From Lingula anatina (taxonomy: Eukaryota > Animalia > Brachiopoda), in NCBI GenBank assembly GCA_051362555.1, contig CM120646.1:15252001-15316000 (forward strand): a stretch of 64,000 nt of DNA. The letters run 5' to 3'. The notes below the pieces were generated by a model that was given only the letters and a program-made list of their open reading frames with translations, made no database searches and was not told the DNA's origin. The position numbers and the translations under genes are program-made. This document shows positions 10,735-63,572 of this stretch, piece after piece. Positions within the stretch are counted from its first letter, which is position 1; each line of letters opens with the position of its first letter.

Positions 10735-12897
10735 ATGTATGCCTTTGCCATTGGGATATTTTGGATGTTTTTCACGTCTTCCTCTGCACAAAGTAAGTCT
10801 AGTGGCACGTTATAGTGTATAGAATATAGCATAATCACCAAGAAAGAAAAATAGGCTTAGGCCTACAAGTGTTTATAGTATTTACATATAAATTATCCTG
10901 GCTTTATCTTTCAATCATTAGTCTAGGTATATAATTATACAAATTTTTATTTGCAATTATCAGTTTATATAAGTGTCCACTCCTTCACTCTTTTTTTTTA
11001 TTGGTTACATGGGATATTTTCAGACTGCCAGCAATGCCCAGAGCCATTTAAGGCCATCCCGGGTGACAACTGTGGCTGCCTAAGCGGCCCTGAGTTGGGG
11101 ACCTTCAACATAGCGGACGGTAACAACTTTTGTATAACGAATAGGCAAGCGACACTACCAGTCTTCAATAATCTAGAGTGTCTACACACTGTCTGGAAGC
11201 TGTTTATGAAAGGTACGTAACCTGCCAGTAGGGCCTATTTACATAGACCTGTGGCCAGCCATTTAAACGTTTCTTTACCTGAAAAGAAAATTGCCCTTTT
11301 TTACTGTTTGTTCTGTTAATAACGAATTCCTTCAACTGACCCAACTTAAACATGTACACAACACCTGGATAAACTGTTGATTCAGTGCGAACTTTTTAAG
11401 CCCAAAAGAGCGGTTCGTCAGAACCCTTCAATCCCCTTCTGGCCTGTAACATGTAAGTAATAATGTTTACATAACGGTGCACAGAATGTGGCCATACTGG
11501 TACATTTTCGACAGTTCACCAAACATAAACCTTTCAATATTCTCTTTCAGTCAATTCTGGGAGCTCCTCAGCACCAAAAACGACATATTATCCAATACTA
11601 GGCAAAGTGACCAGTGTAGACTCAGTGTCGCCCCCTATGGTCACAATCGGTTGGATGACTGGTAAGTGTTTATTTATTTGTTTTTGTTTTTTAATTGTTA
11701 TTATTAATATTATTATTATTATTATTATTATTATTTTGCAGCCATGGGCCTGGACAAATATAACGAATACGCCACATACAAAGTTTTATACCATTTGCAT
11801 TTATTTTTGGGTTATTCAGACCTTTGAAAAAGATATCTATAACCTGGAATTTCAAAAGTATTCATTCACTGATGCTTAAGATCACTGAAATCAATTTTAG
11901 GGGGAAGTTTGCAATTAACATCCGCTAAGGACATCATCTTCCACAACTTTCCCAAGAAAGACTTCTGCGTATTCCTGGTGTACGACTCCAAACCCATCAG
12001 GTACGGCATCCGCTTGGGTTTCAAAGCCTGTGACAGCCTTATGAAATACCCTATCGTCTGCCACCGCTCATGCACACCAGATGGCGCTCCTATGGAACGA
12101 ATTTTGCCGTTCACAATTTTTCCGCCAGTTACAACACCATCGTCTGCGGCGTGTTGCCAGTGTCCTTGCAACTGGGACAAATTGGGCAGTAGTTGTTATC
12201 GCTACAACCCAGCCAAGGCGGACTTCCAGACGCACTACGCCGCATGTAACAGCCAGCGGTTTCTTCCCTCCCAAGCCAGCTCCACCGCCCCCGCACACCT
12301 CATAAGTGTTAACGATGTTGACGAAGCGCTAATGGTCCAACTTATGCGAGCCAAATACGGTAAAAATAGAGCCATAGCTTTCTTGCGTGTTTTACAGTCA
12401 ACTTTTTAAACTCGTAATTTATAACAATTTATAATATATTATCGGTTTGTAAGACATTATCACAGGTGTTTCACCTTTACTATAATGTCAGGGTAGTCCT
12501 ATAGATAATCCTTAGGAAAGCTAATTTATATAGGTAGGCCTAACTATTTAATTCAGTGCTGTAGTGTCCAAATTTACATATTTGCTTTCACTGAACGCGG
12601 TTCTTCGCGGTTACTCACCTTATCTGGTAAATAACGCTTCCTATCCTAGGTGACTCAACCTCCCTTGTATGGACAGACGGCAATGACTTTGCCCAAGAGG
12701 GAATATGGCGGTGGACCAGTAGCAACATGGTGATCCCCTCCTCTCTCCTGGCCTCATTTTGGGCTCAGGGCCGACCGCTTGGGGGAGCAAATGACTACGA
12801 CTTCCTAGCTGTCCAACCCGACGGGAGATGGATAGACGGTCTTTCTCAGACCATTGGTCAGGGGATCTGCGAGCTGGACCTTCCGGTGGGATGTTAA
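10735..12897 (+). CDS. Secreted C-type-lectin-fold protein, paralog of the upstream gene (signal peptide, one divergent CTLD-like domain, C-terminal CTLD), about 354 aa
   Basis: Exons 10735-10792, 11024-11212, 11551-11661, 11901-12359, 12650-12897; 1065 nt, phase-consistent, TAA stop. Signal peptide MYAFAIGIFWMFFTSSSA. CTLD motifs LGSSCYRY, HLISVND, VWTDG, EGIWRW, WAQGRP, WID, ICE. AATAAA near 12968. Confidence 0.85.
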
Positions 12898-30302: not shown

Positions 30303-33204
30303 GAGAGAGAGAATCAACGACACTTACTTGTTCCATTCCCCTCACGACAATAACCATCAGGCCCCTCATACTGGGTCCCATTACAGCCACACTGCTCGTT
30401 TCCATCAGGATTCAGCACAATCACTTTATCTCCACCACACTTGCAGCTTTTCACAGTAGGATGAGACTTCCCAGGAACTGGCATACACAGGTTGCTGCAG
30501 TGGGTATCATTTGTGCAAGGGCTTATGGCTGAAAGACAGGGAAAAAATATTGATACCAGTGTACAAGGGCTTATGGCTGAAAGACAGGGAAAAAATATTG
30601 ATACCAGTGTACAAGGGCTTATGGCTGAAAGACAGGGAAAAAATATTGATACCAGTGTACAAGGGCTTATGGCTGAAAGACAGGAAAGAAACATTGATAC
30701 CAGTGTACAAGGGCTTATGGCTGAAAGACAGGGAAAAAATATTGATACCAGTGTACAAGGGCTTATGGCTGAAAGACAGGGAAAAAATATTGATACCAGT
30801 GTACAAGGGCTTATGGCTGAAAGACAGGAAAGAAATATTGATACCAGTGTACAAGGGCTTATGGCTGAAAGACAGGGAAAAAATATTGATACCAGTGTAC
30901 AAGGGCTTATGGCTGAAAGACAGGAAAGAAACATTGATACCAGTGTACAAGGGCTTATGGCTGAAAGACAGGGAAAAAATATTGATACCAGTGTACAAGG
31001 GCTTATGGCTGAAAGACAGGAAAGAAACATTGATACCAGTGTACAAGGGCTTATGGCTGAAAGACAGGGAAAAAATATTGATACCAGTGTACAAGGGCTT
31101 ATGGCTGAAAGACAGGGAAAAAATATTGATACCAGTGTACAAGGGCTTATGGCTGAAAGACAGGAAAGAAATATTGATACCAGTGTACAAGGGCTTATGG
31201 CTGAAAGACAGGGAAAAAATATTGATACCAGTGTACAAGGGCTTATGGCTGAAAGACAGGAAAGAAACATTGATACCAGTGTACAAGGGCTTATGGCTGA
31301 AAGACAGGGAAAAAATATTGATACCAGTGTACAAGGGCTTATGGCTGAAAGACAGGAAAGAAACATTGATACCAGTGTACAAGGGCTTATGGCTGAAAGA
31401 CAGGGAAAAAATATTGATACCAGTGTACAAGGGCTTATGGCTGAAAGACAGGAAAGAAACATTGATACCAGTGTACAAGGGCTTATGGCTGAAAGACAAT
31501 AAACAAATATTGATATCTGTGCACAATGAGGGACAGAAACTGAACAATAAATGTTCACCATTTGCTGGAGTTAGGACTGTAAGTGAACTTTGATAATCAA
31601 AATACGCAATATCAAAAATGACTAAGTTCAGTCAGTGAACCACAAGAATAACATTATCACACATCACGGATGTTTTGTTTTCATACGCATCACCAATTTA
31701 TAGTCCACACAAATCAAATGATTCAAGCAACTTGGTGCTTGCATTTTCTGATTTTTTTCTTGATTTTCATCAACAACTCACTATAAATGACCTGAAGGAA
31801 ACCAGCCATTCACAGATTACAAATAGGAGTATAAGGTAATAAAATGTCTTCTTCAAAACATGAGAAGAGCAAGTCCTGATTAACATCACCCAAAAATTTA
31901 CCATCGAGATACCTAAATAAATGTAGAGTATTAAGTAATAAAAAAAACTTTTAAACTTCCTTCCAATAAATCTCCAACCCCTTATTATTAACCAATAGAA
32001 CAGAAGATGACTTACTGGCCTGGGAAGACTTTGAGAAGATCTTGAGGTCCATGATCCTTGGCAGGTCAGACTTGATGTACCGCAGTCCCGCCCCAGTGGT
32101 CTTGTCAGCTGCCAGGATGCCTTGTAACATCCAGTCTGTCCAGTAGATGTCATTCTGAAGAGTGACCAGTATTGTCATTATTGCTACTATTAGTACTTCT
32201 AATACTACTACTACTACTACTACTACTGGGCAATCAACCCACTGGACAATCCCTGGACAATCCACCCCACCCCACCCTGACAATACCCCCTGGACAATAC
32301 CCCCCGCCCCCCCCTCAAAGGAAGATTCTGCCTCCCAAACAATATATATGAATATGTTTTTAGTGTTTCCCATATGATCCCAGGACAGGTGCTACTCACT
32401 TACCTTATACACAGCTATTGAGTAAGGATGAGGGGCATATCTACGCCCACTGACCACTGTGTGGACATTCCGGCCATCCAGGTCCGAGTACTGTATGTGG
32501 TCAAGGTAGGCGTCTGCCCAGTATAGCTTGCTAGCTTGGGCATCGATGGTCAGTCCATTGGGCCATTTCACATATAGTGTACTGTACACAATACGCTATG
32601 GAAAAGGAAATATGAATCAAATGAATTATGAAACAAAAGTTCAACCATCAAGCCATTTTTCTAGACTGTACCTAAATGTGCTAGGTTAAATGCTAAGCTG
32701 ATATACTAAAATTGTGATATGTAACTCAAATATGCTAAGTGAAGGTTTAAACTGAAAACTCTTCATGATGTAAGAAAAAGAAAGTATGACGGGACAGATT
32801 CATTAACCATTGGTAGGTATTGAACATTGTCGCCTACCTCAGGAAAATCCGTTTAAGACACTTTTCATGCCAAAATGAGTTGTCATCCCTTTATCATATA
32901 TTTATCCATAGTTTGTTACTTCACAGACTCTTTGAACAATTTAAAGCAACTAGTTAAGACCTCAGTGAAAACACAAGATACCTGAATGGACTCTGGGTCT
33001 CCATTCATCCAGGCTCTGACAATCTGCGGGTGCTCTGTTGACCAGTCCGTCCAGTAGATAGAGCTGAAACAGCACAAGAACTACCTTAAAACACCTTTTA
33101 TTTTTACTTTCACTCTTTAAGTACAATATTTGAGTTCTTTTTTCTAGCAAACTCACTGAAGAGCTCTTAAACAAGATTCTTTCCAACTACAGTTTTATTT
33201 ATTT

Positions 33205-45632: not shown

Positions 45633-47423
45633 TAGCCTACTGGACACTGTCACTAGAAACCCCTGAAACTACTTGTATGACTTAAAATTGACCAATCTTT
45701 AGATTAAATACAGTATGAAATTTGGTAAATACTAAACACTGTCAAAATAATTCAGTGGTCAGTATGAAAATCTCCAGCAGTCCAATCAAAACAGTAGTTG
45801 TAATGTTTTTGATTTTATTCTAATTTTTTAAACTGTTCACTATCTTTCAGCAAGCCTGTACTGTTCATGCTTCATTTACCAAGCACACTAGTTTTAATTT
45901 CAGAGCATGTATTCACATACTTTAGGCTTAATTATTAACCATATGTAAATAAAATCATGTTGTAAAATGCTTGTGAGCAAATACTCTGTACAAGCCCCTG
46001 ACTTATCATAAGTGCTCTTGCAACAACAATCAAGATATATAAGCATAGAGTTCAAGGGGTCTCAGCTAGAAGTCTTGGGCCTCCTGCATATGGCATACAG
46101 GCATAAACAATGAAGAGTAATCATAAATTGCAGTCAAGGATGGGGAAGAAGTTGCCTCTTAAATCCCCTTGTCAAACTCCATACTCGCCTGGTCTTGGCA
46201 GTGCTTTTAATAATGTGTGTGTATATATATATATGATAAAACAGAGGTCCACATACGTTTTATAACTTCTATAATTGTGTTGTATGCTTCCCAGGTCGAC
46301 CAGACATAAAGATCAGGCCTAGGTTAACAGTGTCATAAAGACCAAGCATAAAATAATAAAGATCATTACTATAGTAGTCTCTTTTATTAAGGATATGAGG
46401 CTACGAACACAATCTTCACCCTCAAAATCTTTAGCTCACGGCTGATGTCAACATAATATCTTATAATAACTACTATATTTTAATCCCACCTAATATATAG
46501 CATTAGACTGTCCTATGAATCACTACTGCTGATTCAGCACAAATAAGCTTGAATTAGCCTTTTACCTGTTTCTATATCTAATTAGCACATATAATAGAGA
46601 TCTAAAACCATTAAATGAAAGTGCAAATACTTCATGGTAGTGTTGATAATTAGAGCAGGGTTTCCACAAATCAGACCCCAGAAAATGATATGCAAAGCAT
46701 TTCTCAGACCCTAGACTGCTTACATGAAATGAGACCTACATTAACGACCATTACCACAGTATCAGTCACAGTATTATATCCAAAGAGACATTATCATAAA
46801 TCATATCAATAGACATGTATGATGTCGATAATCTTGTTGTCGTTATTGGGGTTTTGTTTACCAGTTGGCAATGTTATTCAAGGGAGGGGGTCCTGGACCC
46901 TACTGCCATACGTGCTGAATACAAAGGGGATACAGGTACCACCGGAATTAATCACGAGTCCCTTACACAACAATCAACATCCGGGTTGACACATATTCAT
47001 AATCATGAAACAATTCATGATTTTCGAAATGGCTGATCGCTGGTGTATGGTACATATGTATTCAACTAGCCCCTAGAAGACATTAATAAGAATGTGTGTG
47101 TCACATAATACCTCACAGGTGCTTGCAGAGGCATTACACGCTGGTTTCGTCGCTGCTCTCTTTTGCCGATTGTGCAAGGGGGTGTCCTGTTCCGACTCCA
47201 TTTCTGCAGCCAGACGCTGGAAAATCTCCTCCGCACTCTCATTTTCACGCATGTTGATTGTAAACCTATTGTTGTTGAAATATTCTTCATGTTTCTCTCT
47301 TCTCACGTGCAATGTCTCTGATTTTGATCCATGTTTTAATGCCACATTTAACTCTATCGATCCTAACAGGAAAAGGAAAGTAAGTGGCAATGTCGCCGCC
47401 ATGTTGTTATGCGCAGCACTCAT
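16674..47423 (-). CDS. SORL1: Sortilin-related receptor SorLA (VPS10P + 10CC, YWTD propeller, EGF, 10 LDLa, 6 FN3, TM, cytoplasmic tail); about 45 coding exons
   Basis: Exon 1 (47423-47112) has a signal peptide and furin site RQKR. VPS10P exons: [59 protein letters not shown] exons 34149-32016; LDLa exons 30202-25209; FN3 exons 24510-17622. The TM exon contains [15 protein letters not shown]. The last exon, [22 protein letters not shown] (stop 16676-16674), matches the known SorLA tail. Confidence 0.97.
18519..18755. mobile_element. Foldback MITE (PIF/Harbinger-like, TWA target)
   Basis: Long imperfect inverted arms (tagatcgatc...gcttaactgaatgacacgcct / aggcatgtcattcagttaagc...gatcgatcta), flanked by TTA and TAA. 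Related copies near 39414, 51935 and 54140. Confidence 0.7.
24098..24281. mobile_element. Palindromic MITE with TAA target-site duplication (Tourist/Harbinger-like)
   Basis: About 55-bp imperfect TIRs (gagagcattcagaacagcgaactaacagat... / ...atctgttagtctgttgttctgaatgcgcta) with TAA on both sides; a partial copy lies near 60505-60571. Confidence 0.7.
25555..25779 (+). mobile_element. Possible degenerate tRNA-derived SINE
   Basis: 5' end resembles a tRNA head with an A-box-like ggccttgtggtttgagc; 3' end is an A-rich tail (ttaaacaaaac). No clear B-box. Confidence 0.3.
29051..29197. repeat. Degenerate ~40-bp tandem repeat (about 4 copies) spanning a SORL1 splice acceptor
   Basis: Units like acaggtgccatatactgaaaacattg recur. 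Minus-strand YAG at 29068-29066, 29109-29107, 29149-29147 and 29188-29186. Confidence 0.7.
30512..31498. repeat. 48-bp minisatellite, about 20.5 copies, each containing the SORL1 intron/exon junction
   Basis: Unit gtgtacaagggcttatggctgaaagacagg(gaaaaaat/aaagaaac/aaagaaat)attgatacca; ctgaaagaca recurs every 48 bp from 30529 to 31489. Confidence 0.98.
32797..32893. repeat. Dispersed repeat fragment; second copy at about 59221-59346
   Basis: Both loci share gattcattaaccat...caggaaaat...gccaaaatga...gttgtcatcccttta. Confidence 0.65.
38407..38480. repeat. (TA)n microsatellite
   Basis: Seen directly. Confidence 0.95.
39414..39662. mobile_element. Foldback MITE with TTA target-site duplication (PIF/Harbinger-like)
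   Basis: TIRs gaccccgttcccatacctagat / atctaggtatgggaacagggtt; palindromic interior; TTA on both sides. Confidence 0.75.
39717..39821 (-). CDS. SORL1: SORL1 alternative exon 6b ([35 protein letters not shown])
   Basis: 105 nt, phase 0-0, ttatag acceptor, gtaaga donor; homologous to exon 6a. Confidence 0.8.
40577..40681 (-). CDS. SORL1: SORL1 alternative exon 6a ([35 protein letters not shown])
   Basis: 105 nt, phase 0-0, aattag acceptor, gtaaga donor. QLWVS matches the SorLA VPS10P segment between YMFAT and [12 protein letters not shown]. Confidence 0.85.
45040..45099. repeat. (AAT)n microsatellite
   Basis: Seen directly. Confidence 0.95.
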
Positions 47424-48649
47424 GAAGTGGTTGCGCTAAATGAACTAAACAAAGTAGTTCCGCTTCGTTACACCATTTTAGGGTATCACATAAGGGATCC
47501 AAGAAATAATTAATTATTTAAATCATTTGGTAGATTTTTAAAGGGCTGGTGGAATTAGTTTAATTCACAAGTTCTATCAAAAACAAAACATATTCATACG
47601 CGGCACCAGTTACGCTCTGGTACAGGTGTCCTCGAAAAAAACAGGTGCCATGAAAAAATGCGTCGTTTCGTAAACACGTCGTTCAAACTTTGTCTAAGAA
47701 CGTTCTACCTCACGCAGACTGATCGGCAGTGAAAACTGACAAAGACCAATGGACATTTGGTCTCACATCGACAATTAAACAGCTTTCATTTTACTCTAAT
47801 ACATAATTAGGGACTAATCAGTTAGATCCAATTAGACTTTACAGCATCAATTATCTTTTTACCGTAATTTTTTATATCTTATTGGCCGATATAAATTATG
47901 GGTGTACAATAATTTGTACATCGATTATTAAGAAATGTGAGGTACAGAAATGTTTTTGATGGCACGTTTGTATTTAGTTGTCACAACCGGTCTCAACTAA
48001 CAGAATATTTAATATTCGACTCATCGTTTTGTCGATCTGAGGTTTGGGGTGGAGGATGGGAGGGGGGGGGGAGAGTTCCTTTTTTTCTATCGAAAAGGAG
48101 CACAATATTGTTTCAATACAGTTTTTCCTGCGACACATTATATTTCTATGAGTTGTTTACAATGTAATTTATTCATAATTGTAAAATATAGATCTCATAC
48201 GAAGATCTCCCGAATGTGCAACTGGTGTCGTGTGATCAAACTATCAAACTGTCGCTGTGTTCAGTGCGTCCTGAGATAATCAAATTAGAATTATGCCTAT
48301 ATATGTAAAAAGTTTTAAATATCTTTAATATGATTTGCTGTTAACATTTGTCGACAACATTCGTAAGATACAATGATATTGATTCACAACAAAATCAATA
48401 AGCACATTTTTGAAGGAATGAACAGTTTTGCTGCGATCGAACTGCAGTCTAGTCTTTATCGTCTTTTATTTTTCACAAAATCCTACAACACATGTTATAC
48501 TTATTTTTGTTAAATTATCTATTCATTCATTCTTAAACTTTATGAAGCAAGTCCAACATGTCCAACTGTCTTCAATTTAAGGATTTTTTTCAAAGCGACT
48601 TGCAGCTCATGACGTCAGGCGTCATGACGTACCTACTCAAAATCTTAGC

Positions 48650-48741
48650 TAATTGGCGTAATGAACGTTCATGTTAAGACAGAATTTGAGTTTGAGAATT
48701 TAAGTAAATCGATTGGGACTGAACGTTCATTACGCCAATTA
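48650..48741. repeat. Perfect 22-bp inverted repeat with a 48-bp spacer
   Basis: taattggcgtaatgaacgttca (48650-48671) and tgaacgttcattacgccaatta (48720-48741). Confidence 0.85.
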
Positions 48742-51310
48742 AGAACTAAGAAAAGAGACTGTTTTCTTTGTTGGAAAACCACAGGAAGCTAGATTTTGTA
48801 CTTATGTAAGTCTGGAGCTTCTGAACCATTTCCTGTTTAACTATTCACAATAGTTACATAGAAATTAGGGAAAGGAAAAAAAAACATGCTTGTCAATTAT
48901 GATGTATAGTTTCCTGGGTATGATGACGACCAGAAGTTGGAGCTTGTCATAAGTGACTGCAGTTGTAGAAGAACTGTAAAATACATTGTAAGAGCTAGCT
49001 ATAGCTTTCAAATGCAGACGATCATTATCATAATTATACAGTACGTGGGTTGTTATACTATATAGTCCATGATCACCATACCACGATAAAAAAAACAAGC
49101 TGTGTGTTCCTATATTTTCCTTTCATTACATTTTCAGCAAATAAGTAGGGCCTATATATTGGCTTGTGGGCCCAGTGCCGTAAAAATGACTGCCTGTGCG
49201 AGTCGCTCTACTAAACTACTAAGTTATAACAGGCCATGGAGTAGATCAGGGCGATTTGTATAGGGTGGCGACTGTAAATACAAAACCTTCGTACCTTGAC
49301 GCAAGTCTTATAGAAACTGCAAGTCTTCATTATGACTAATATAGTTTATGAGAAAGCGAAAACAAGTCTTAGAATTTTCTGGCAATAAAGCAAAATGTAT
49401 GGAAATAAAAAGTCGTCACCGAAAATTGCAAGAAGCTGAAAAAATATTGTCTGGAATTTGGTAAGATCTAAACTTAAGTCTGCCAATCCCAACATAACCC
49501 GTGATATGGCAGAGGGGTTTTATTGATATAAGTAAGCATTCGCCAAACACAAGAAATTATAGAAAATTAAATTAAGTTGTGCATAATTTGGTTGAAATCG
49601 TGGAAAATCTGCGGAGACAATTGGAGTGTTGTACTCCAGAGACTAGACTGCTACTAGTTGTCCTTTAACATACAGATCACCAAGATATAGTGAGTCTCGA
49701 AATTTAGCGTACAATCAAGCGAGATTCCCCAAGAAAAGAAGAAGTGTTAGTCAGAAATAATGACAGACTAACGAATGCGGCAACGCAGAAAAGTTGGCAG
49801 AATTTATTGACATATTTTTCTTGTTGTTTATGACAGTGTATAACAGTACGGTACGAACTCACTGTTTTCATGCCAGCGCTCGATGTTACTTTAGTATTGT
49901 ATTAATTCCCAGAACATATTGTTTTGTCTTTATCGCTAAAAAATTTAACCACATCAAGTGGATTCTGGCACGTTTTCTAGTCTACCATGACGTCACGCAG
50001 TACCAATAGCCTCGTTCTGTTATCAAGGTTTGGTGACGTCACAGGATGGGTGTAGCGCATTCAACGTCTTACCAGAGTCCGTTCTCGCATCGAGCGGTAC
50101 TCTCAGAGGGGTATCTTAGTCAAACAAAGACTTACCTCTACATTATAGTTTAACCTTTAATAAGTCAATTCCTTTGGTTGAAAACGCACAATAAAACTTC
50201 ACCTATTAAAAATTTACATTTTAATGAGTTCAAGGAGTAACCCGTGGAGCTTGTCCCTAGGAGAGATGAAATATCCCATGCCAGAATCAGGCCTACCCAA
50301 CTACCAGACTCGGCACCTAAGGATCCTGAATTAACCGGTATATCGGACCACACTACCCGTTTTCAAGGTGTGTGTCAGATCGCATTTCGCATTACCGATG
50401 CGCCAGGAGAAGGCACGTTATCTTCAAGAACAATTTCGGACAAAAACACTAATATTAGCGACCGCAAAATGCGTCGATTCTGTTGGAGAGTAAAACACAG
50501 CTTTGGAGTTATCAATTGCTAGTTTTCAAACATTGGTACCTGCCCTTCGGCTTGAATGTCAGTTTAAGAACAAAACAGTTTATCAACTGAAATAATTATA
50601 GCAAGGGAAGCCCAATCATCGTTCAGATGTGACAGCATATCAAAGGAACGGTCGATTCGCAGGAAGAAAGTGCGTTATTCACCAGTCTGGACTGGTTCAC
50701 TTTGGACAACTTTATAAAAAAAACTGTCTGTAACGTTTTTAAACAGAGCCATACACAATTTTATGGTTGGCTTAACAACAGGAGCCGAATTCTCGGAGAA
50801 ATTGTGAAATGGAGTGAAGTCCCGTGAAACCTCCGTACATTCGGATGTCTCGAAACGAGCCACTTTGACTGGATCAGTTTTAACAACAGGAAAAGGGTCA
50901 AAGTGTTCGTGTAGAAAGGAGTTGGCCTTTTTCCAAACAGACCATTTGAGTTTTACTGCTACATTTGTTTCTGTTACTATCGTCATGTCTGCCGCACCTA
51001 TGTTTGTATGGACAGGTACATGTGTATTCAATCCACTTTGACCGCAAATTGCACTTGTCCTCCCCTTGTTTCCTCAGCCCTATTGTTTCAAGTAACCTGA
51101 AAGAAAGATGTCCTCGTTTAGCACGTTATTGCCCCCAGTAACTCTGAGCATGTCTCTTTACCACTGCTTCCCACTGATAACAATAGGCATTACCCTACAT
51201 CCATGTGACCTGTCGGTGTCAGCAGGTAACGCGCTCTACCTACATAACTTTAGTATCATTCAGACACAGTGGGAGAGAGAGCACGTTGGGACTGCTCCGA
51301 CACTGGCAGA

Positions 51311-54300
51311 ATGTCCTCTCTTTTTCGGCTGGCAGCGACGGTTCTTTTAGTGGTGGCTTCTTCCGCAAAGGGCGCGATTGCTCAGAGCAATACGAACGAG
51401 ACGATCGCCAGGGCGTGGGCTGAGGAATACAACCAAAGAGCGCAGATTGTGTTTGCAGAAAGCGTGGAAGCGGATTGGAACTACAGTACTAACATAACCG
51501 ACTATAACAGAGATGTTGCAGTAAGTACTTACTTATACTAGTATAAGAAAACGTTTTTTTACTTGGGTACGGTCACGAAACAGTGGCGAGTTGGTATAGG
51601 TTCATACCAAGCTAGAGCAGCATCTTTATTTGTGAAATGATTCAGCCCCCTTATTCAAGAAGCGGGTCTTTGTGGACCCTTTTCTGGGATGCTTCTCTCT
51701 TCTAACTCGGTTCGTCCCATCTGAGCACGTCACCATAGCACTATAACCCAACTAATTTTTTAAAGACCGAAACTTGATCTTCCTCAGTGGGAGTTAAATT
51801 CATAGTTGTCCACAGAGATAAGGTACACTTTCATCTGAAAAACAAGCCATTTATTTCCTGCTATAAAACCATGCAATAAAATCAAATAAAATAATATAGT
51901 TGGACGACTACTGATTTATATTGGGCCAAAGGATTCGTTCCCACTGAAACTGCCGTTCTACTTAGGTCGATCCAAATCCGCGGGGACTCTCGCTGAATGC
52001 AATCACATTAACAGATAAACACACCCCCTCTTATTTCTAACGTAGTCGTATAATCACCACATTTTTAGTATTCTAGTCAATGCCAAGAGGAGGCGTGTTA
52101 GGCTCTATTCCCATAGATTTTAGATCGATCTATCCCCGCGGGGAGTCTCACTAGATTACTGTCAGCTTGGCCGGCTTAAGCGTCTGTCCCGCCTACTTAA
52201 AGCTGTAAGGGGGTAATTAACTATGGTGTCCGCTCGGCTGACTGCAATTTAGCCTGAACCCCCAGGGAGTTAGGTCGATCTAAACCTTAATCTTTAGATC
52301 GATCCAAATCTCTGGGAAAGCACCCCAAGAGGAGGCGTGTTAAACTGCTAATCTGATTGCACTCAGCGAATGAACCCAAAGTTGACTGAAGAGTCCAGAT
52401 AAGGACAGTCGACTTGCCTTAATTTCGGACGGGCCAAGGAAGATGTCAGATTTGCGATATCATTCTTTGATTAATTGATTTTTCAAGTGAGTTTGTTTGT
52501 TTGGAACATTGTACTTTGGAACTCTTTGTCCTAGATTAATTTAAAATCATACTTTATTTATAAAATAAAAAAACGTTACAAAACCTCTGAGTAGCAGATG
52601 GTTTCCAACTGAGCACAGACATTAAAAAGCACTGCATTTTCCACTGTGATACGTTTGGCAAATTTGATATTTTTATAATTTTAGTTTACAGTTAAAAAGT
52701 AAAAAAGATAAATAAATCGTAAGATAGCTATAATAGTTTAAATAAGTTTATTCAAGTAGTAGAAGTGTTGTCCAGGAAAGGACTTGATCGGTTTGTGGGC
52801 CTAAAAATTTTGTTATGCATAAAGAGGAGGTTTACTGGCAGTTTTTAACGTACGGTACATACATTCTTAAAATTTTTTCTAACATTCTGAGTGGAAAAAT
52901 TTTCTTTAGCATAGAATTAAATCCTGAGTACACTCCACGTTGTCCCTTTCTCCTTACTTATTTTCTCTAAGCTTTCCTCGCGTAAATCTGAATACGAGCA
53001 AGTACCCCAAGACGTTTTAACATGACTATGAAATATGGATTGAATTATGGATGGCGTAAATTGAATAACCAAACGTTTAGCGAGCCATCTGATTATAGTT
53101 TACTCGGGTCATTGGTTGCAAGTTGGACGTGTTTCGGGTACGCACGCATTGTTTCGAAGCAGTATATATGTTGTACCGACGGCATGGACCCAAAAACTGA
53201 AGTTTAACTACGAAAAAAAGGAAAAAAGACATAGTCGATGTCCGTCTAGTATACAAATTCAGTTACATTCAAATCTTTGCAGAAATAAAGGGATTACGTG
53301 TATGATGAAATCTGCACCATTTACTGTGCATGTGTAAATAAAATGTATTTTTAGACCGTCATTTCTCAAGTCTATATTTATTCATTTCCGCACCCATTTT
53401 ATAAGGAGCTTGTGACAAGCAATTCAGTCGTTTACTGAAGCACTTCTAAAACGAAAATCGAGACTGTGAAGTGTGTCGTAAATGTTTTATCAGTTGAAAG
53501 CTGTCAATGATTAAACATGTTAGCGCAGGGCAAGTGCGGCCATGCACCACCCCTAATACCAACGCAGTGGATTAATTATTAATTTAAAGTGATTGATAAT
53601 TAATCTTGGTTTATTTTCACAAGATGAACAGTACAAAGATAGTGATAATCCAGTAATCGGGGCGTCTTTCTCCTGATGTTGGACAATAACCAGGGGCGGA
53701 TTTAGGCCGTCTTCAGGGTCTTCCGGAAGACGGTCAGATTTTCAAGTTTACATTGACGGGTATTTAATTTTTTCTGTCGGAAGACGGTCAAAAAAGGAGG
53801 ATGGATCAACAAAGATAATTTGGAAGACTGTCAGAAAATATCTCTGGATCCGCCCCTGATAACCCTCTTTCTATATGTGGATTGATAAGTACACTATCAG
53901 TTTATGGACGCGTATAATAGTTCAGTTTTCAGACTGCTTTGCTGCGTTAGTCTGCACCCTATTTTGGTGATTGGCATGGAGTATTTATCTATTGAACACA
54001 TACTTAGATACATATTTTTTATGAAACCTTATTATAGAAAAGCGGTGAATGTATTTATTACTGTCACAGAGTAAGCGTTTAAAAAGTTTTTAAATGAACT
54101 AATTTTTATGCAGTGATACACTGTCCGGCTGCAAACAAGGGGCTCATTCCCAATGAACTGTCGTTCTACGTAGATCGATCCAGCTCTCACTGATTGCAAT
54201 CAGGCTAGCAGATTAACATGCCTCATTTTGTTTCTAACGCACTCGTATAATGGCCAGCTTTTTTTGTATTCTACTCGACCCCATGTCTGTTTATTTGGCT

Positions 54301-56877
54301 AGAAATCTCATTCGCAATAAATACGTTCGATAAAATGATAAAAAATGACACATATTTAACCATATAATAAATTTGAGATGAAGCATCCACGTTTTCAATA
54401 AACACTTCACCGGTACGGGGTAGGCCATTTAGATAGCTATCTACCTGTATGCTGTACCCTATATTCAAATGTTACTTTTAATTATAAGTATTTTACCAAC
54501 GAAAATAAAGTTAATTGTGAGTCGAGTTGTGCGAACTAAGTGATTTTTCAGCCGTATCAAGCTGGGCAATTTTTCACACTTAATTGAAGTTCTGAGACCC
54601 GTTACACGAAATGGATTAAGCCAGTACAATATAGGAGTTCAATAAAATGATGCATTGCCCGTGTTTTATAACAGGAAAGACGTGATCAGACCAGTACTTA
54701 TCTTTTGGGCGGACTGCTATTTATTCATGTTCATCTGAAGTACACTAAATTCCGTTTTAGGGTTCATTTGCGACATCGTCCTTTAACCCTTGACTGTGGC
54801 ACTGTTCTTCCCTGTTGCTAGGCAGGTGACGCTAGATACGTGAATTTAATGATGGCGACACTTTGACTGATTTGGATACAACTTTATATTCATCAGTTTG
54901 AAGTCAAGCACCTGGACAGTCAAATATATTGTAAAAGAATGTGTCTGCAGTCCGCTCCCCATGAACGCTTTGAAAATAAACGCATTATTATTATTTTGCA
55001 TTTTTTTCCCTGAAATGCAAGGTATTGCTTTTGTTGGGTGTAATATAGGTAAATGATCACGACTCTAACACGCTTTTTAATATACATACATGATTTAGTT
55101 TGATGCCTTTTTATTTCATTGCCCATGTGTTCCTGTTTTTGCACTTGTTATTGTTGCGTTGTTATCAATATTCATCTGCGTGTGGTATTCATCTAAACAA
55201 GAAGAGGCCCGTTTATAGTGATGTTAACCTAACAATAACTATCTTGTCCTGACAAAGTCGGAGGTCGGTGGCCTCAATATAAGATATGATAGCAATAGGA
55301 TTAATGTATTTACCATGTGGTTTGAGTTGGATTCAGTTTTTTCTGACGTGCTGAAAACAAACATGGTGCGATTGTTTATTGACTTGTATTTTTAAACTTA
55401 CTACGACCTTTCGTCCGCTGTAGTTCTATTTTCCAAACATCTGTTCACGTGAATGTAAACTGTCCCCGTTTGAAAATGTTCCAAAGTCATGCGTTCTTTG
55501 TCTACATTTGTTGCAAAGCTACGTCTCTTTCCCAATTAAGACTCGAAAAACGGCAAAACCTCACAAATAAAAGTACCTGATGTCGATTTTTCCTTAGAAA
55601 AATGTACAGGCAGACGTGGCGGTCGAAAGGCTTTTAGAAAAAGTATAAAGACCGGAAGTATATAACATAAAATGGCATAAAACATCGGATCAGGGGCAAT
55701 GGATCGTGCTAAGGACAAAATAAAATAAAAATAACTCGGGAATTTTGGATAGAATGCCAGTTATACCTACAGCTTGTATATGGTGCATTTTTGGTTCGTG
55801 CCACGTTTTACATATGCAGGACGATTAAGAGAGTGACTTCACAGCGTTGTGGGAATCCTCACTCGAAAGAAAAGAAAAGGACTGAACGAATTGTTACGGG
55901 ACTATTTTATTTAAAGTAAATCTCAGTTCTGGTATTAAATTGGAGCATATAGCACTACCCACAGAAGATTCAAGATCTAAGGCTACAAGCAAGGCTGAAA
56001 TCAAGAAGAATAAGCAGAAAGTCGAAATCTGTGGGGATCATTCAATAGGAAAATGAGATTCGTTTTGGGTTATTCGGTGGCTTTCTCTATTATCTTCCTG
56101 CAAATAGCAACAGCACACGAAATCAAATCGGAGCAAGAAAGGGCAGTCCAATGGCTGAGGGACGTCAATGACCGCGCCGGCAGAGTGTATAATAACTTAC
56201 GAGTGGCAAGATGGGTGTACGCTACAAATATAACTAAATTTAACGGAGAAAGACAGGTAATGTTTTGTTAACAGTTAATTTGTAACTGCTATGTAACCGT
56301 AACCGTACCGTAAGGGATAAAACATAAAACTGGTGTCAGTCTTATTACTGTGAATTCACCAATCATAATTGTTCTTTCATATTCTATTTCATCGAAACCT
56401 TGCGTGTATTGAATACGTTGAATCAACTGCGTTAGTTTGTTACAACATTCATTTTCTGGTGAGCACGTTCCAGTATAGGTTGTTTCAACAGCGAACATCT
56501 GTGAAGCTACAGACACAAAATGCCTCTTATTTTATATGGGCAAAGTCCTCGCAAATCGCAAAAATATGTGACAACTAGGACTCGAAACGTTGCTCATGGG
56601 GTAGATCATATGGACCATTTCATCACCGTTTGCTTGCTTTATGAGTCAAACATTCATAAGTAATATACGTGCTTGGCACTGCCTTCTTAGTGCAACAGGG
56701 CCTCCATGATATTACTGCTGAAAGCTGAGAAATCCACGAAGAATTTGACTGCATTGTTAGAAAGAAGGAAGGACATTCCATCACAGAACATTGACAGATT
56801 GGGGGGCACAGCTTGTATGAGGAACCCTATACCCCCCACCCACCCCCACCCCAAATCAGAGTATAAGGTTGTGTTCA

Positions 56878-56917
<40 letters not shown>

Positions 56918-58115
56918 TATATGTAATTTTTATCCGAACACAATTCAGCAACATCTTTGTTTAATCAGCCCCGACAGCGGGCCTTTTCGGTTGGGGAGAT
57001 CGAGGCTCTGCAGAGCTCGAGCTCCTTCTGCTTTACCCGCGGGCAGTCCCTACCAGAAGAGTGGCTTATTGTATTATTTTGCATTGCATTGTATTGCAAA
57101 TTGCGTTGCATTATATTATATTATATTATATTATATTATATTATATTATATTATATTTAGCACAACGCCTCCATCATGTCTGCAGAGTTTGACAGAGAGG
57201 CGGCGGCAAATGCTTCATTGTTTGCCTGGGAGAATTTCACCGATCCTGATCTTAGGAGGCAATTCAGAAAAATCTCCGATGTCGGCTCTGCAGCACTCCT
57301 TCGCAAGGACAAGGCAAAATACGAGAGGGTGAGTTGATGACACAGTGATGTCACGTTTTATAAGCATGAAGTGCATATGTGACAAAGACATAATACGAAA
57401 CGATCGTGTCGTAGAGCATTTATAAGAAAATGGGTCTGCTCTGATGTCAGCCAAGACGTAGCTAGTACGCCCTTCGGAAATATTTCAGTGTACAGAAATC
57501 GCAATGACAATATTCATGTACATATGACCTTGAGGCAATGCAAAAATATTTATCTGTGGTTTAGATTGAAGTAGGTCTGGTTGGCTTGTCTCTGTGTTAT
57601 GTAAATGTCTAAGATGACATGAATGTCAGTAAGGTCAGAAAGCTTTCCGGATCAGTTACTTTTTGCTTTCCAAATATGCAGCATGTGACAAGAATATTTT
57701 TCTCTCTTTCTTTCTTTCTCGTTCTTTCCTTTTTAAGCATAGAGGGCGAATTTTCTTTAATAAGTTGGGGACGTGTGACGAGAATTCGGTGTTAATTTTG
57801 CGTTGTAGGCATAACAATTCAGGTTCATAAAAACTAAAATTGACGCACTCACTTCCTTCACGGTAAAATTCAACAATTTCGCTCATCCACAATGTTTTCA
57901 TCCCATCGATTAAAAATCCTGACAGAGTAGTTTGTATCCATTTCAGCTCATATCGTTGGTCACCAAGATGGAGACCACTTATAGCGAGGGCCAAGTATGT
58001 GACAAAAAGGGCACGTGTTTAGATTTGGAGCCAGGTTAAGTATACGACACACTTTTTTGTTTATTAACCTAGTAGTGAATTGTTTGTTTTAGGGCTTTAA
58101 GATCATTGAATTTAA

Positions 58116-58163
<48 letters not shown>

Positions 58164-59275
58164 CTTATTTGTTTAATGTCCAGTCCTTATTACAGGTCTT
58201 ACCCGATTAATGGCCACCTCGAGAGATTATTGGGAACTTCTTGATGCCTGGAAAGGATGGCGGGATGCAACTGGACGAAAGATTCGAAACGATTACAAGG
58301 AATTTGTTGATCTCAGTAACGTGGCCGCTGTTGAAAATGGTAAGCTAGTGAACGCCTGTGCATATGCGTGTTTGCACTGGTGTACGTTTTACTTAATGTG
58401 GTAGAATCATATGTGCACCTCACACATCACTTTTAAGATATTCAAACCGTTTTCAAATTAAAATCACTATTCCTGAATCGAAGGACTTGGTTAACGTAGT
58501 TACCGGTTCTATTCGTATTTTTTATCGATCCAGATTTATCGATTTATTTTATGGGAATTAATAGTAATTTCCCCTTTTTTATTAAAAGTAGCTACGATCT
58601 GTTAACCAGATTTAAAGCTCGAGAGGGGCTCAAAAATCCGAAACTTGAACATGCTCACAGTATTTCACTGAACATTTTTTATTGCGGTATCAACCTTATC
58701 CACTCAAACCAAAAATACCATGCTTTCTGCCATTCTTGCAGGGTACCGAGACACAGGGGACTACTGGAGATCCTGGTACGACACTGCCGACTTCCGGGAT
58801 CAACTAGAGCAACTGTATGAGGAGATGAAACCGCTCTACCTTAACCTACACGCCTATGTGAAGAATAAACTGAAGGCAAAATATGGAGAGAGCTTGTTTC
58901 CACCGAGTGGACACATTCCAGCTCACTTATTAGGTATGGGTGTTATCACGTTATAGATGTGTTTCGGAAGTATGCGACAACTTAATCTTGAAATATCACA
59001 GTTTGTTAAACCTTGATGTGTTGTGATATATGTAATTTTAAAGAGATAATAACTTTTCTTATGAGATTCGTATTTTACCACCAAAACAGCGGTTATCGCA
59101 ATTATTCTGGAATCTCTGCTTGTCATCAGACCATGTGAGCCTTCATAGATGGCTATATCTCCTTAATAATCCGTTAAGAAATTATTACAGACACCAAACT
59201 TTAAAAAATGGACTAACTTTGATTCATTAACCATAGGCAAGTATGGGAGAATCGTCGTTTACCCCAGGAAAATTC

Positions 59276-59320
<45 letters not shown>

Positions 59321-62300
59321 CAAAATGAACGGTTGTCATCCCTTTAAAATGTTGTGATTACTGTAGACCAAAATTTTTGTTCGAGATGAATTGAAGTATT
59401 GTATGAGTGATAATGCATTGACACGATTTCAAAACATTATGAGAAATATGCTTCAATATATTGCGTTGGGTTAGCCCCATTATAGAATGAAATCAGCATT
59501 TATAAAATATGATATTGAAGTCATTCAAGATATGTATGTCACTGATATGCCTTTGATGATATATAAATTTATACCGTATTGTCAATATATATTGTGAAGT
59601 GAAAACAAAATATTTTTTATTCGGCATCAACACACATGACGCCATTGGACGTACTCTCAGTATGACGCTAAGTAAAGCATTTCACTGATTATATTTTCAA
59701 GGGAATATGTGGGCCCAAAGTTGGAACAATATATTCGACATCGTGGAGCCTTTTGCTGGGAAACCTAGCGTTGACGTCACCCCTAAGATGAAGGAACTGG
59801 TAATGACGGGCTCATAAGTTCTCTTCCTTCTGAAAGTATAAAAATTTATTCAACGGTTATTGTACTGGATATTTTTTGTGTGGTGGCATCTATATTTTTT
59901 TAGTATTGGCATCTATAAATTAAGATATAAACACAATATTAGAGCATTGAAAATGTTTCACTCGTAAGTGGTGTGAAATTGCACATCAGCATTGAAATAT
60001 GGCAGTGTTTTTTATCTCACAAGCACAACACTGCAAGGTGTGTTTTTTTAATGAATTCTTGGAATTTGATTTAGAATTACACGCCCCGTAGAATGTTCAA
60101 CATTTCTGACGAATTCTTCACTTCGCTGGGTTTGAAAACAATGCCGCAGGAGTTTTGGGACCATTCCATGCTAGAGAAGCCTACGGATGGACGTAGGGTT
60201 GTGTGTCACGCGTCAGCCTGGGATTTTTACAACCAAAAAGACTTCAGGTAAATGTCAACATTGGTGGCCTTTGTAACCGCTCAAAATAAGATCAGTAATA
60301 GTGAGCTGACGTCACAAGACGACCAGATATACACAGCATAGGGGTCTCCCTCGTGATTTTTTCTTTTGATCTGTAACAAGTTCTCTAGGGGTAGGGGGGC
60401 TCTATAGCACGCATATCATCCCCTAACAATGATACAATGGTTTCTACGCCTCCCACGCGGGCCGTTCCAGCAGAGGCAGGGCAATTAAATCTCGGCATGT
60501 TTTCGGGGTGGGTGGCGCCATATTTGATCCGCATACTAGTTAGTCCGCGGAATAACTGGTTGTGAATGCTCCCAAAGAGATAAATGAGTCATTGGGTTTC
60601 TTTTTTGGTCAGAATCAAACAGTGCACAGACGTCACGATGGAGGAACTGATCACAGTCCACCATGAAATGGGCCATGTGGAGTATTATCTCCAATACAAG
60701 GATCAGCCAGTTGTGTACAGGAGGGGGGCAAATCCCGGTATGGATTGCGTGTGTTGCTTTTGCTTTGAATAGTACTTAGTTAACTCCTTAATGTACAAGA
60801 AGTTACATTCATTAGAATGAATATTGAATTGGAAAAAAACTATTGTGAGATTCGTAAAGATTGTTCTGAAAAAAGGAATCACCCCTTCATAAAATTAATA
60901 AATAAAATGAAATAAAAGAGCAAACGTAATAAATGAATAAATTGCGCGTTTACAAATGTTCGTATTTATAGAAACAAGATAAAGACCCTATTTCTAACAC
61001 GTACTGTGCAGCACATAGCTCTAGGAATACAGGTTACAATACAGAAATGCTAGGTTTAAACTTTGTTTAAGCAAGACACAACTAAGACGCACTCCAATTC
61101 TCTGTCCTAATACTTACAGGGTTCCACGAGGCTGTTGGTGACGTACTGGCCCTTTCAGTCTCCACGCCAACACATTTGAAAGAGATCGGGCTGCTGAAGA
61201 ATGTTACCAATGACAGTGGTAAAAACAATGAAATATTTGGGAAATCTCGCGTTTTCCGTTTTCAGTGTTTTGTAAGAGAAAAAGTTATCAAAAGCATTGT
61301 GCTATTTTCATATGATACTTGATAGGTATTTTTTTTACTTCCAACAAGTGTCAAACATTACAAGCCGTGTCCCTATGCTAATAAGCATCAATCCTTTTTT
61401 CTTGTAGAGAGTGACATAAACTATCTAATGAGCATTGCCCTGGACAAAATTGCCTTTATTCCATTTGGATATTTGATGGACCAATGGCGCTGGGGTGTTT
61501 TTGATGGGTCAATAAAGTTTAAGGATTATAACAAAGAGTGGTGGAAGTTACGGTAGGTGTGGCAGGTAACGCATTCGCAAATGTGCTCAGGTGTGCCGTT
61601 TTCACAACTAACACATTCATATTTTGCTTTCATTCGACCCAACGGGATTGGTTTTGTATTATGTTCATTCGGCCAGAATCCAGTAATTTTTTCAACGTGG
61701 GGTGGAAATGGCCTTATTTTGTGGTCGCACACCTAACGCACTCCATATATCAAAAATCCTCCGAATGAAAAAACTTTTTCTTTCCGTCTTAGCAAATTAG
61801 TTATGACTGAAGTGGAATTGAAAAATTACTTTTCCGATTGAAAACAAGAATCAGTGTAGCTTATTGTCAAGAATTTGATGAATGAAATTGCATCAATATA
61901 CATCTTCATGCCGCTTATTTCCAAGACACCTCATTATCTGCATACTGTAAAGGGGAATTTCAAATATAAAACAATTCATCAAAGATATTGATTCTTTTCA
62001 GGTGCAAATACCAAGGCGTTTCTCCCCCAATACACAGGAATGAAAGCGAATTTGATCCTGGTGCCAAGTATCATATACCAGCTAATACACCATATATAAG
62101 GTTCAGTTTCAGTGTATATTGAAATTGTATGTTAACCATTGCTAGGTTCTTGGTATAAAATGAACCTCCAGATCCTGACTAATTTACATGAAAGGCATTT
62201 AGTATACATTAGATAACTGAAAGTAATATAATGGTGCATATTAAAATGCAGTTTATTCTTGGTACCTTTCTATCCAAGTTTCTAAATTTTGATGAATTAT

Positions 62301-63572
62301 CAATCAGTTTGTGTGATTGTTTTTATACACAGTTTCCAATATTGAGCATTTACATCTCTGTGTGAAAAAAATACTCATTAATTAATATGATGCAACTTTT
62401 TGAATAAAAGTGGCTATGGCATTCTCATATTTAGGAGAGGGATTTTTTGCTTTGTAAACAATTTTCAGGTGATTATTCAAAATTCAAAAATATATGTCCA
62501 CACCAAATTGGCTTAAGCATGAGTCTTTAAGAGTATTTTCAAAGAAAGTTAACAATAGAGCTGTATAAGCTTGAGAAATCTCTATTTGATTTCTCTCCAT
62601 ACTAAAAACATTCTAAAACAAGATAATCTAATTCATTTTTAAACCTTTATGTCTTCAGGTATTTTGTTAGTTATGTCCTACAGTTCCAGTTCCACGAGGC
62701 CCTCTGTAACACAGCCAATCAGACAGGTCCCTTGCACATGTGCGACATCTATCGATCTACAGAAGCAGGAGCAAAACTTGGGTAATGTGGCTGTAAAATT
62801 GCATACTAAATAAAATACATATCGTTAGTTCATTACGTATCATTTCATTAGTCTGATATACATTATTTTGATTAAATTATCAGTTACTAAGTTCCTATTT
62901 ATTAGTATGCAACCCTCAACAGAAAGCTATGGAAAGTGTACCAAGACATAATTCACTACTACGACACTATTTGTAAATTCTAGCTATATATTCAAATTTA
63001 GTATCAGCAAGTATATAAATATAGAAGAAATAGCATTTCTGCATTCCCCCAGTGAAAATTCAAAACATTTTACAGTATAACTGTTGCATAATGTCACAAT
63101 TGCCTCAAGCATTGTAAAACACTTCTTCATATGACTGCATATATTTGCCAAAAACAATCCAGTGTAACTATCACACCTACAGCAATTAAACCCAAACATC
63201 ATTACAACTAACACAATCCCTTCAAACTGTGAAGTCTTTAATATTATCTATTTTTCTTTATATTTTAGTAACATGTTAAAACTTGGATCTAGTAAACCAT
63301 GGCCAGAGGCACTGGAGCAAGTTACAGGGACCCGTAACATGTCCGCTAATGCCATCTTGCTCTACTTCAAGCCTCTAATTGATTGGCTAAAGGTCCAAAA
63401 TGCAGGTCAGGGCATAACATGGTCTGAAGAATGTCCAACTGAGTTTTACACGACTACTTCTGCTCCTTCAACCACCACCAAATTCAAGCCAGCAAATTCA
63501 ACAGGAAGGTTGCATAATAGTTTCTTTATAGTAGCCTTTATATCTGTATTGACACGTTACATTGTAAGATGA
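51311..63572 (+). CDS. ACE: Angiotensin-converting enzyme, single catalytic domain (peptidase M2), about 655 aa
   Basis: Exons 51311-51520 (or 56053-56256), 57161-57328, 57947-58034, 58196-58339, 58742-58933, 59702-59799, 60075-60247, 60613-60737, 61120-61218, 61408-61552, 62002-62100, 62659-62781, 63269-63572; 1968 nt, in frame. Motifs [67 protein letters not shown]. Confidence 0.95.
51935..52378. mobile_element. Nested foldback MITEs (inner element 52101-52324)
   Basis: The outer copy resembles 18519-18755 and 54140-54273. The inner copy has TIR-like ends (ggctctattcccatagattt / aaatctctgggaaagcacc) and is flanked by direct repeats ccaagaggaggcgtgtta. Confidence 0.65.
53691..53858. mobile_element. 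MITE with TIR CAGGGGCGGAT and 5-bp target-site duplication ATAAC
   Basis: caggggcggat...atccgcccctg with ataac at 53686-53690 and 53859-53863; internal repeated ggaagac(g/t)gtca. Confidence 0.8.
54140..54273. mobile_element. Truncated copy of the foldback MITE family
   Basis: gggctcattccca...gttctacgtagatcgatcca...tgcaatca...tcgtataat...gtattcta aligns by eye with 51935-52075. Confidence 0.6.
56053..56256 (+). CDS. ACE: ACE alternative first coding exon 1b (signal peptide + N-terminal helix)
   Basis: [68 protein letters not shown]|gtaatg; phase 0; homologous to exon 1a (W.Y.TNIT..N). Confidence 0.85.
57111..57157. repeat. (TTATA)n microsatellite abutting the ACE exon 2 acceptor
   Basis: About 9 units of ttata followed directly by tttag|cac at 57160/57161. 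Confidence 0.9.

What the first reader, a model, noticed from the sequence alone, without database searches (positions are those of the whole stretch)
51311..57328. ACE with two alternative first exons that swap the signal peptide and lid helix
Seen: exon 1a (51311-51520) and exon 1b (56053-56256) each have an ATG, a signal peptide, the first ACE helix (A..W....N.RA......A.W.Y.TNIT..N) and a phase-0 GT donor that fits the single downstream exon 57161-57328. I found no other ACE exons between them. In the aligned mature segment 1a has 8 acidic and 3 basic residues with three N-glycan sequons; 1b has 5 acidic and 8 basic with one. Known: the N-terminal helices form the lid over the ACE substrate channel, and mammals diversify ACE through two domains and a testis promoter. 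Inference: alternative promoters give two enzymes with one active site but oppositely charged lids, a different route to substrate or tissue specialisation.
Basis: partly seen in the sequence, partly recalled or inferred. Interest (0 to 1): 0.8.

Follow-up and report, generated by a model that had tools for sequence, protein, structure and literature searches.

The report
Two alternative lids for brachiopod ACE
A lamp-shell (Lingula) gene for angiotensin-converting enzyme carries two old, intact versions of its first exon, one acidic and one unusually basic in the helix that covers the substrate pocket; the RNA tested uses almost only the acidic type, and the basic one is likely a tissue- or stage-restricted alternative, a design already reported for a mosquito ACE.

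Summary
A single-domain ACE gene of a Lingula brachiopod has two homologous first exons (signal peptide plus helix alpha-1, phase-0 GT) ahead of one intact 12-exon body, with no other ACE exon between them. Exon 1b is not random debris: it keeps 12 of 14 family-conserved positions although it is only 34% identical to 1a, and a RefSeq Lingula model starts with a 91%-identical 1b. It is the most basic alpha-1 of 83 compared, with Arg at the position of human Asn66, which lines the cavity. Use of 1b was not shown. In 2 of 4 RNA runs with good ACE coverage, 1a-type reads matched body depth and 1b had none; a third run gave about one read near 1b. Those reads differ about 5% from the window. Only one lid helix is swapped. 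The design is not new: mosquito AnoACE3 has two cDNA-supported first exons (2005), and annotated sea star and amphioxus isoforms differ only there. This scan earlier found other duplicated ACE exons in other genomes. Best reading: a restricted alternative first exon (0.55); rival: a recently silenced exon, used only in a sister copy.

The parts
51311..51520 (+). First coding exon 1a: signal peptide plus acidic helix alpha-1 (net -5, three N-glycan sequons); the main first exon in the RNA tested
   Evidence: RNA depth about 55x in X1 and X3; identical (70/70) to the start of XP_013407921.1
56053..56256 (+). First coding exon 1b: signal peptide plus basic helix alpha-1 (net +4, one sequon); intact, use not shown
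   Evidence: 62/68 identical to the start of XP_013394530.1; no reads in X1, X3, X4, about one read in its bin in X7
57161..57328 (+). Shared exon 2 (remaining lid helices)
   Evidence: RNA joint to exon 3 in X1 and X3
57947..58034 (+). Shared exon 3
   Evidence: RNA joints
58196..58339 (+). Shared exon 4
   Evidence: RNA joints
58742..58933 (+). Shared exon 5
   Evidence: RNA joints
59702..59799 (+). Shared exon 6
   Evidence: RNA joints
60075..60247 (+). Shared exon 7
   Evidence: RNA joints
60613..60737 (+). Shared exon 8 with the HEMGH zinc motif (single copy here)
   Evidence: RNA joint from exon 7
61120..61218 (+). Shared exon 9 with EAVGD (third zinc ligand)
61408..61552 (+). Shared exon 10
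62002..62100 (+). Shared exon 11
62659..62781 (+). Shared exon 12
63269..63572 (+). Last coding exon: end of catalytic domain, Ser/Thr-rich stalk, hydrophobic C-terminus with no cytoplasmic tail (likely GPI signal, inferred)

Best explanation
One Lingula ACE gene carries two anciently duplicated first exons; a 1a-type exon starts nearly all ACE transcripts in the RNA tested, and 1b is likely a second first exon, used from its own start site in a tissue or stage not sampled, that would give an enzyme with the same zinc site but a basic first lid helix. Shown: both exons are intact and in phase with the shared body; 1a-type transcripts exist; 1b has the substitution pattern of a protein-coding exon under purifying selection. 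Inferred: 1b is still used at this locus. Its cavity-facing residues (Tyr46/Leu49/Arg53 versus Phe48/Ser51/Asp55 in 1a, aligned to human C-domain Trp59/Tyr62/Asn66) would change the charge of the non-prime cavity and so the handling of longer peptides, and the loss of two sequons would change surface glycosylation. Both forms would be secreted and likely GPI-anchored. Testis is a guess, by analogy with oyster CgACE and mammalian tACE.
For: 1a and 1b are identical at 11 of 14 family-conserved columns but only 3 of 27 variable ones (Fisher p=3e-5). 0 of 20000 neutral simulations kept both an open frame and >=12 of 14 consensus residues. ATG context and GT donor are intact. RefSeq XP_013394530.1 joins a 1b exon to a 94%-identical body. 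Between Lingula copies 1b differs at 6/68 against 35/582 in the body, like 1a at 8/70 against 55/581; neither differs significantly from its body (p=0.42, 0.53). The body tree is (B,(C,A)), with 1a in A and B and 1b in A and C, so both exons likely preceded the recent gene duplications, and the 1b stem (1.4 changes per site) is far older. The 1b-bearing protein folds as ACE with pLDDT 94-98 over residues 31-70 and rmsd 1.3-1.4 A to tACE (weak evidence, alignment-driven). Same design elsewhere: AnoACE3A/3B; Acanthaster, two Asterias species and Branchiostoma lanceolatum annotations.
Against: No 1b reads in X1 and X3 against about 100 reads each on 1a (1b under about 3% in each); about one read in the 1b bin of X7 and none reaching its donor; X4 has no ACE reads. 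1b carries residues seen in 0 of 79 other sequences at the positions of tACE 63, 66, 75 and 78, which could be decay as well as specialisation. Whether the RefSeq 1b model rests on RNA is unknown. No 1b relative outside Lingula was found. The test between copies has little power for recent loss of constraint.
Confidence: 0.55

Rival explanations
1. 1b was functional for a long time but is now silent at this locus; after the recent whole-gene duplications the copies divided the two exons between them (this copy and copy B use 1a, copy C uses 1b), or 1b is decaying everywhere.
For: No 1b RNA in the two well-covered runs. RefSeq models use 1a for copies A and B and 1b only for copy C. Several rare residues in 1b. 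The copies are young (90-95% identical), so a silenced exon would still look intact.
Against: 1b has not diverged significantly faster than the body between A and C (6/68 versus 35/582). Reads from copy C's 1b were not seen either. Tissues of the runs are unknown and only two were informative.
Confidence: 0.3
2. 1a and 1b belong or belonged to two tandem genes (1a-body, 1b-body) whose intervening body was lost, either by a real deletion or by an assembly collapse at the repeats between them.
For: Lingula ACE is tandemly duplicated: XP_013407921.1 is a fused model of two adjacent genes. Interspersed repeats lie between 1a and 1b.
Against: No trace of a second body between the exons. The window has no N. 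An independent RefSeq model joins the identical 1a to a 98%-identical body, and there the next tandem gene also begins with a 1a-type exon. Bodies behind 1a and 1b are 90-95% identical while the exons are 34% identical, which would require gene conversion of the whole body. A real old deletion would explain the origin without excluding present alternative use.
Confidence: 0.1
3. 1b is used, but the swap matters only for where and when the gene is expressed (promoter, signal peptide); the charge difference is mostly surface drift with no effect on substrates.
For: [quoted passage not shown] The sea star and amphioxus exon pairs are both acidic, so duplication does not require a charge switch.
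Against: Some changes fall on positions that contact ligands in human cACE (Trp59, Tyr62, Asn66; PMC12531861), and no other sequence of 79 has a basic residue at position 66.
Confidence: 0.25

Closest known systems
Anopheles gambiae AnoACE3A/3B (PMC1325048; section 5 and passages read)
   Same: Single-domain ACE with two alternative coding first exons spliced to a common exon 2, in a tandem ACE cluster. Table 3 coordinates give 268 and 235 coding bases, long enough for signal peptide plus first helix (my arithmetic).
   Different: There both forms are EST/cDNA-supported. The passages read report no charge contrast or functional test. No hydrophobic C-terminus; different intron layout.
Annotated isoform pairs of sea star ACE (XP_022084568/9; XP_071788169/70; XP_033624236/7) and Branchiostoma lanceolatum ACE (CAH1241839-42)
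   Same: Isoforms differ only within residues 1-70 of the window protein, i.e. the first exon.
   Different: Both alternatives are acidic. The short-segment tree groups the Asterias pair and the amphioxus pair within their own lineages, so the duplications are likely independent. Database annotations, not checked against DNA or RNA here.
Mammalian ACE: somatic two-domain form and testis ACE from an intragenic promoter
   Same: Alternative promoter and signal peptide; same fold; N- and C-domains differ in the lid and non-prime cavity.
   Different: tACE is the C-domain with its own leader and keeps the C-domain lid helix (recalled); here one domain is offered two alpha-1 helices.
Duplicated internal exons of invertebrate ACE (zinc-motif exon in scallops, oyster, snails and sea urchins; exon 3 in Lineus)
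   Same: Exon-level diversification of a single-domain ACE by tandem exon duplication.
   Different: Those are internal, presumably mutually exclusive exons chosen by splicing; here the choice is of first exon. The zinc-motif exon is single in this window.

Membership tests
Peptidase M2 (ACE), active single-domain type | Pfam Peptidase_M2 match and ACE fold | tested here: met
   (1b-bearing relative P0001: TM 0.95-0.98 by target, rmsd 1.3-1.4 A to tACE/cACE)
Peptidase M2 (ACE), active single-domain type | HEXXH plus downstream Glu zinc ligands | tested here: met
   HEMGH at residues 375-379 and EAVGD from 403 in the 1a isoform
Peptidase M2 (ACE), active single-domain type | Dipeptidyl carboxypeptidase activity | not testable with these tools
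   needs an enzyme assay
Gene with alternative duplicated first exons (AnoACE3 type) | Two homologous ATG-bearing exons with same-phase donors ahead of one body | tested here: met
Gene with alternative duplicated first exons (AnoACE3 type) | Both exons under coding constraint | tested here: met
   (p=3e-5; 0 of 20000 neutral runs); shows long-term, not necessarily current, constraint
Gene with alternative duplicated first exons (AnoACE3 type) | Both exons transcribed and spliced to exon 2 | tested here: inconclusive
   1a-type expressed at body depth, its joint not listed by the tool; 1b 0 reads in 3 of 4 runs, about 1 in the fourth; 4 of 9 listed runs laid, tissues unknown
Gene with alternative duplicated first exons (AnoACE3 type) | Separate transcription start sites | not testable with these tools
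   needs CAGE or 5'RACE; coverage places the 1a start just upstream of 51285 only
Two-domain somatic ACE | Two catalytic domains in one chain | tested here: not met
   one domain with a stop at 63572; the 1325-aa RefSeq protein contains a C-terminal tail, a translated 5' leader and a second signal peptide in its middle, so it is likely a fused gene model

The most novel reading that the evidence does not exclude
Exon 1b is a live, tissue-restricted (for example germ-line) first exon that puts arginines into the non-prime cavity of ACE and reverses the charge of its lid helix, switching peptide preference without touching the zinc site. Together with the duplicated first exons of sea stars, amphioxus and mosquito and the duplicated active-site exons of molluscs and urchins, it would show that single-domain invertebrate ACEs repeatedly rebuilt, by exon duplication, the substrate diversity that vertebrates get from two domains, and it offers a natural one-helix swap to test what the lid does.
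Probability: 0.25. Interest if true: 0.65.

Novelty: new member of a known kind. Interest (0 to 1): 0.36.

Why it matters
How far the ACE lid governs entry and choice of long peptides is argued mainly from structures. Two natural isoforms that differ only in helix alpha-1, with a charge reversal at a ligand-contacting position, would make that directly testable. The case also adds a brachiopod to a recurrent pattern of exon duplication in invertebrate ACE genes. Against this, the architecture has a published precedent and the unusual isoform has not been seen expressed.

Tried and rejected
No RNA holder was listed by word index; all nine runs came by species label. The homologue search with 1a among longer proteins found nothing, although P0002 contains it exactly, so that blank is uninformative. 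The profile-free search with mature 1b gave only P0001 and a 5003-aa archaeal protein, which I rejected as a compositional match. The low signal in the bin just after 1b in X1 (1.28x) was rejected as 1b use because the bin holding the first 167 bases of 1b was 0. The 1325-aa RefSeq protein was rejected as a true two-domain ACE. Common ancestry of the Lingula and sea star exon pairs is not supported by the 44-column tree, which is poorly resolved and whose bootstrap had not settled. Inr- and TATA-like words upstream of both exons were seen by eye but not tested and are not used. No 'angiotensin' hit in the main text or the 1 held supplement of PMC4595640 or the 3 held supplements of PMC13121700; supplements not held could carry tissue expression. 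Searches by place and by sequence in earlier scan findings were blank. Paper searches listed nothing on brachiopod or sea star ACE isoforms; the mosquito precedent surfaced only.

Full report
What is there. The window is animal DNA (36.9% GC, no N). From 51311 to 63572 on the + strand lies a single-domain ACE gene, head to head with a SORL1-like gene on the - strand. Twelve shared exons from 57161 give one intact catalytic domain with HEMGH and EAVGD, a Ser/Thr-rich stalk and a hydrophobic C-terminus without a cytoplasmic tail; a GPI anchor is my inference, no predictor was run. Two exons precede this body, 1a (51311-51520) and 1b (56053-56256). Each has an ATG with A at -3, a hydrophobic leader (best 11-residue hydropathy 2.5 and 2.4), the first ACE helix and a phase-0 GT donor. 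tblastn at E<=50 found no other ACE exon in the window. The closest database proteins are Lingula anatina RefSeq models, so the organism is a Lingula brachiopod.

Is 1b a real coding exon? 1a and 1b share only 14 of 41 residues and 43% of bases. Of 14 columns conserved in at least 70% of 79 other ACE sequences, 1a matches 13 and 1b matches 12. The two exons are identical at 11 of those 14 columns but at 3 of the 27 others (Fisher p=3e-5). Codon positions 1, 2 and 3 are identical in 20, 21 and 12 of 41 codons, and 8 of the 14 identical residues use different codons. When half the 1a-1b distance was applied neutrally to 1a, 10% of 20000 runs stayed open and none also kept 12 consensus residues. 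So 1b was under protein-level selection for most of its history. This does not prove that it still is.

Other Lingula copies. XP_013394530.1 (P0001, copy C) starts with a 1b exon (62/68 identical) on a body 94% identical to the window's. XP_013407921.1 (P0002) is 1325 aa; its first half matches the 1a isoform at 642/654 and its second half (copy B) is a tandem gene with a 1a-type exon (62/70) and a 90.5%-identical body. The linker is a translated 5' leader, so the model is likely a fusion of two genes. The body tree is (B,(C,A)) with moderate support for C+A (87/90). With 1a in A and B and 1b in A and C, the simplest history is an old two-exon gene that was recently duplicated whole. Copy C could also be a diverged allele; reported genome heterozygosity is 1.6% (PMC4595640, passage). 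I could not see whether B and C carry both exons, nor whether the RefSeq models rest on RNA.

RNA. Nine runs were listed by species label. I laid 4 of the 9 on 46900-60850, reading about 6% of X1, X3 and X4 and 25% of X7. In X1 and X3 (one study) the 1a bin had depth 33 and 31 on the sense strand, about 55x over the exon, against 50-97x on the five shared exons computed; six joints among exons 2-8 were seen with 21-94 reads each. The bin holding most of 1b was 0 in both, against about 100 reads on 1a, so 1b is under roughly 3% of ACE transcripts there. X4 had no ACE reads. X7 had about 10 reads on 1a and about one in the 1b bin, not reaching the 1b donor. Three limits apply. The 1a-to-exon-2 joint is not listed; the tool skipped a simple repeat that abuts the exon 2 acceptor and showed only part of its joints, so that splice rests on matched depth and on the RefSeq model. 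The X1/X3 reads differ from the window at nearly fixed sites (8 listed within 1a's coding part, 4 changing residues), so they come from a diverged allele, population or paralogue, and a 1b under 92% alike would be missed. The tissues are unknown.

Structure and mechanism. The first roughly 100 residues of an ACE domain form a flexible lid of long helices next to a hole into the non-prime cavity (PMC7642307 and PMC9379546, passages on 'lid'). The swapped exon gives only the first helix. In human cACE, Trp59, Tyr62 and Asn66 contact ligands at the non-prime exosite (PMC12531861, section 13; its Table 2 was not rendered). The alignment, anchored by that paper's equivalence of cACE Trp59 and nACE Leu32, maps these to Phe48/Ser51/Asp55 in 1a and Tyr46/Leu49/Arg53 in 1b; Arg50 of 1b (Gln in copy C) should lie on the same face (inferred from helix spacing). 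Among 83 distinct alpha-1 segments, drawn from the top hits and their cluster members and so not a random sample, 78 are net negative. 1a (-5) is typical; 1b and copy C's 1b (+4) are the most basic, followed by one Lottia protein (+3). None of 79 others has Lys or Arg at positions 63, 66 or 75. The 1b-bearing P0001 folds as a normal ACE (pLDDT 92.5; rmsd 1.3-1.4 A to tACE), which is weak evidence because the alignment drives the model. My mechanism is a second start site that yields an isoform with the same zinc site, a more basic non-prime cavity and two fewer glycans. The kinetic effect is inferred, not shown. Oyster CgACE rises in the male gonad and its activity is needed for fertilisation (PMC3235092, abstract and passages), which makes testis the first place to look.

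Comparison with what is known. Anopheles AnoACE3 has two EST-supported transcripts that differ in their coding first exon (PMC1325048, section 5 and passages). I looked up 19 ACE clusters, chosen for having several members or isoform names (a twentieth was the archaeal false hit). In 3 of the 19, same-species entries differ only within residues 1-70 (Acanthaster; Asterias amurensis and A. rubens; Branchiostoma lanceolatum). In 7 of the 19, named isoforms differ only around the zinc-motif exon (scallops, oyster, Biomphalaria, Littorina, sea urchins). Lineus differs in exon 3 and Owenia at 517-555. These are annotations that I did not check against DNA. The sea star and amphioxus pairs are acidic on both sides and look lineage-specific (weak tree). 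Ten paper searches listed no paper on the Lingula gene or on a charge-reversed ACE lid; the library lacks most subscription papers. Four earlier notes of this scan describe duplicated internal ACE exons in other genomes; I read them after and treat them as unverified.

Verdict. The anatomy is real and old. The opposite charge is real, with 1b the outlier. Expression of 1b, separate promoters and any effect on substrates are unshown, and the gene design has a precedent. New member of a known kind, interest 0.36; 0.65 if the basic-lid isoform proves expressed and kinetically distinct.

Noticed in passing
window 16892-47411, - strand: SORL1/SorLA-like gene (Vps10/BNR, LDL-receptor class B and A repeats), head to head with ACE about 3.9 kb away; its first exon is transcribed in all four runs.
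   Followed up: partly
window 30460-31590: A tandem repeat of 17-codon (51-nt) units, open in several frames on both strands, lies inside the SORL1-like gene where an EGF-like segment ('[10 protein letters not shown]...') begins; it may be intronic or a coding expansion.
   Followed up: no
window about 1900-12900, + strand: Gene or genes with C-type-lectin-like segments and Thr/Pro-rich stalks containing repeated 'TPCPWYNPNC' units (6691-7758); the two pieces scanned gave no Pfam hit at E<=0.1.
   Followed up: partly
window 50280-50420, 51960-52330, 53690-53860, 54150-54260: Short interspersed repeats with internal inverted arms in and before the 1a-1b intron, heavily covered by RNA reads from elsewhere in the genome; probably MITE-like.
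   Followed up: no
P0002 (XP_013407921.1): RefSeq 1325-aa 'ACE' is likely two tandem single-domain genes fused by the annotation; the second copy has changes near the active site (HEMGHVQYDLQC, FQEAVGEV) that may mark decay or divergence.
   Followed up: partly
P0071, P0094, P0109, P0078, P0114, P0080, P0077 clusters: Annotated isoforms of mollusc and sea urchin ACEs differ only in the zinc-motif exon (up to four versions in Mizuhopecten; urchins also vary the next exon).
   Followed up: partly
window 51285-51499, 58322, 60138-60196: RNA of X1 and X3 differs from the window at nearly fixed sites in ACE (about 5% in 1a) while matching it at the five SORL1 sites shown, so the expressed ACE may be another copy or a deeply diverged allele.
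   Followed up: partly
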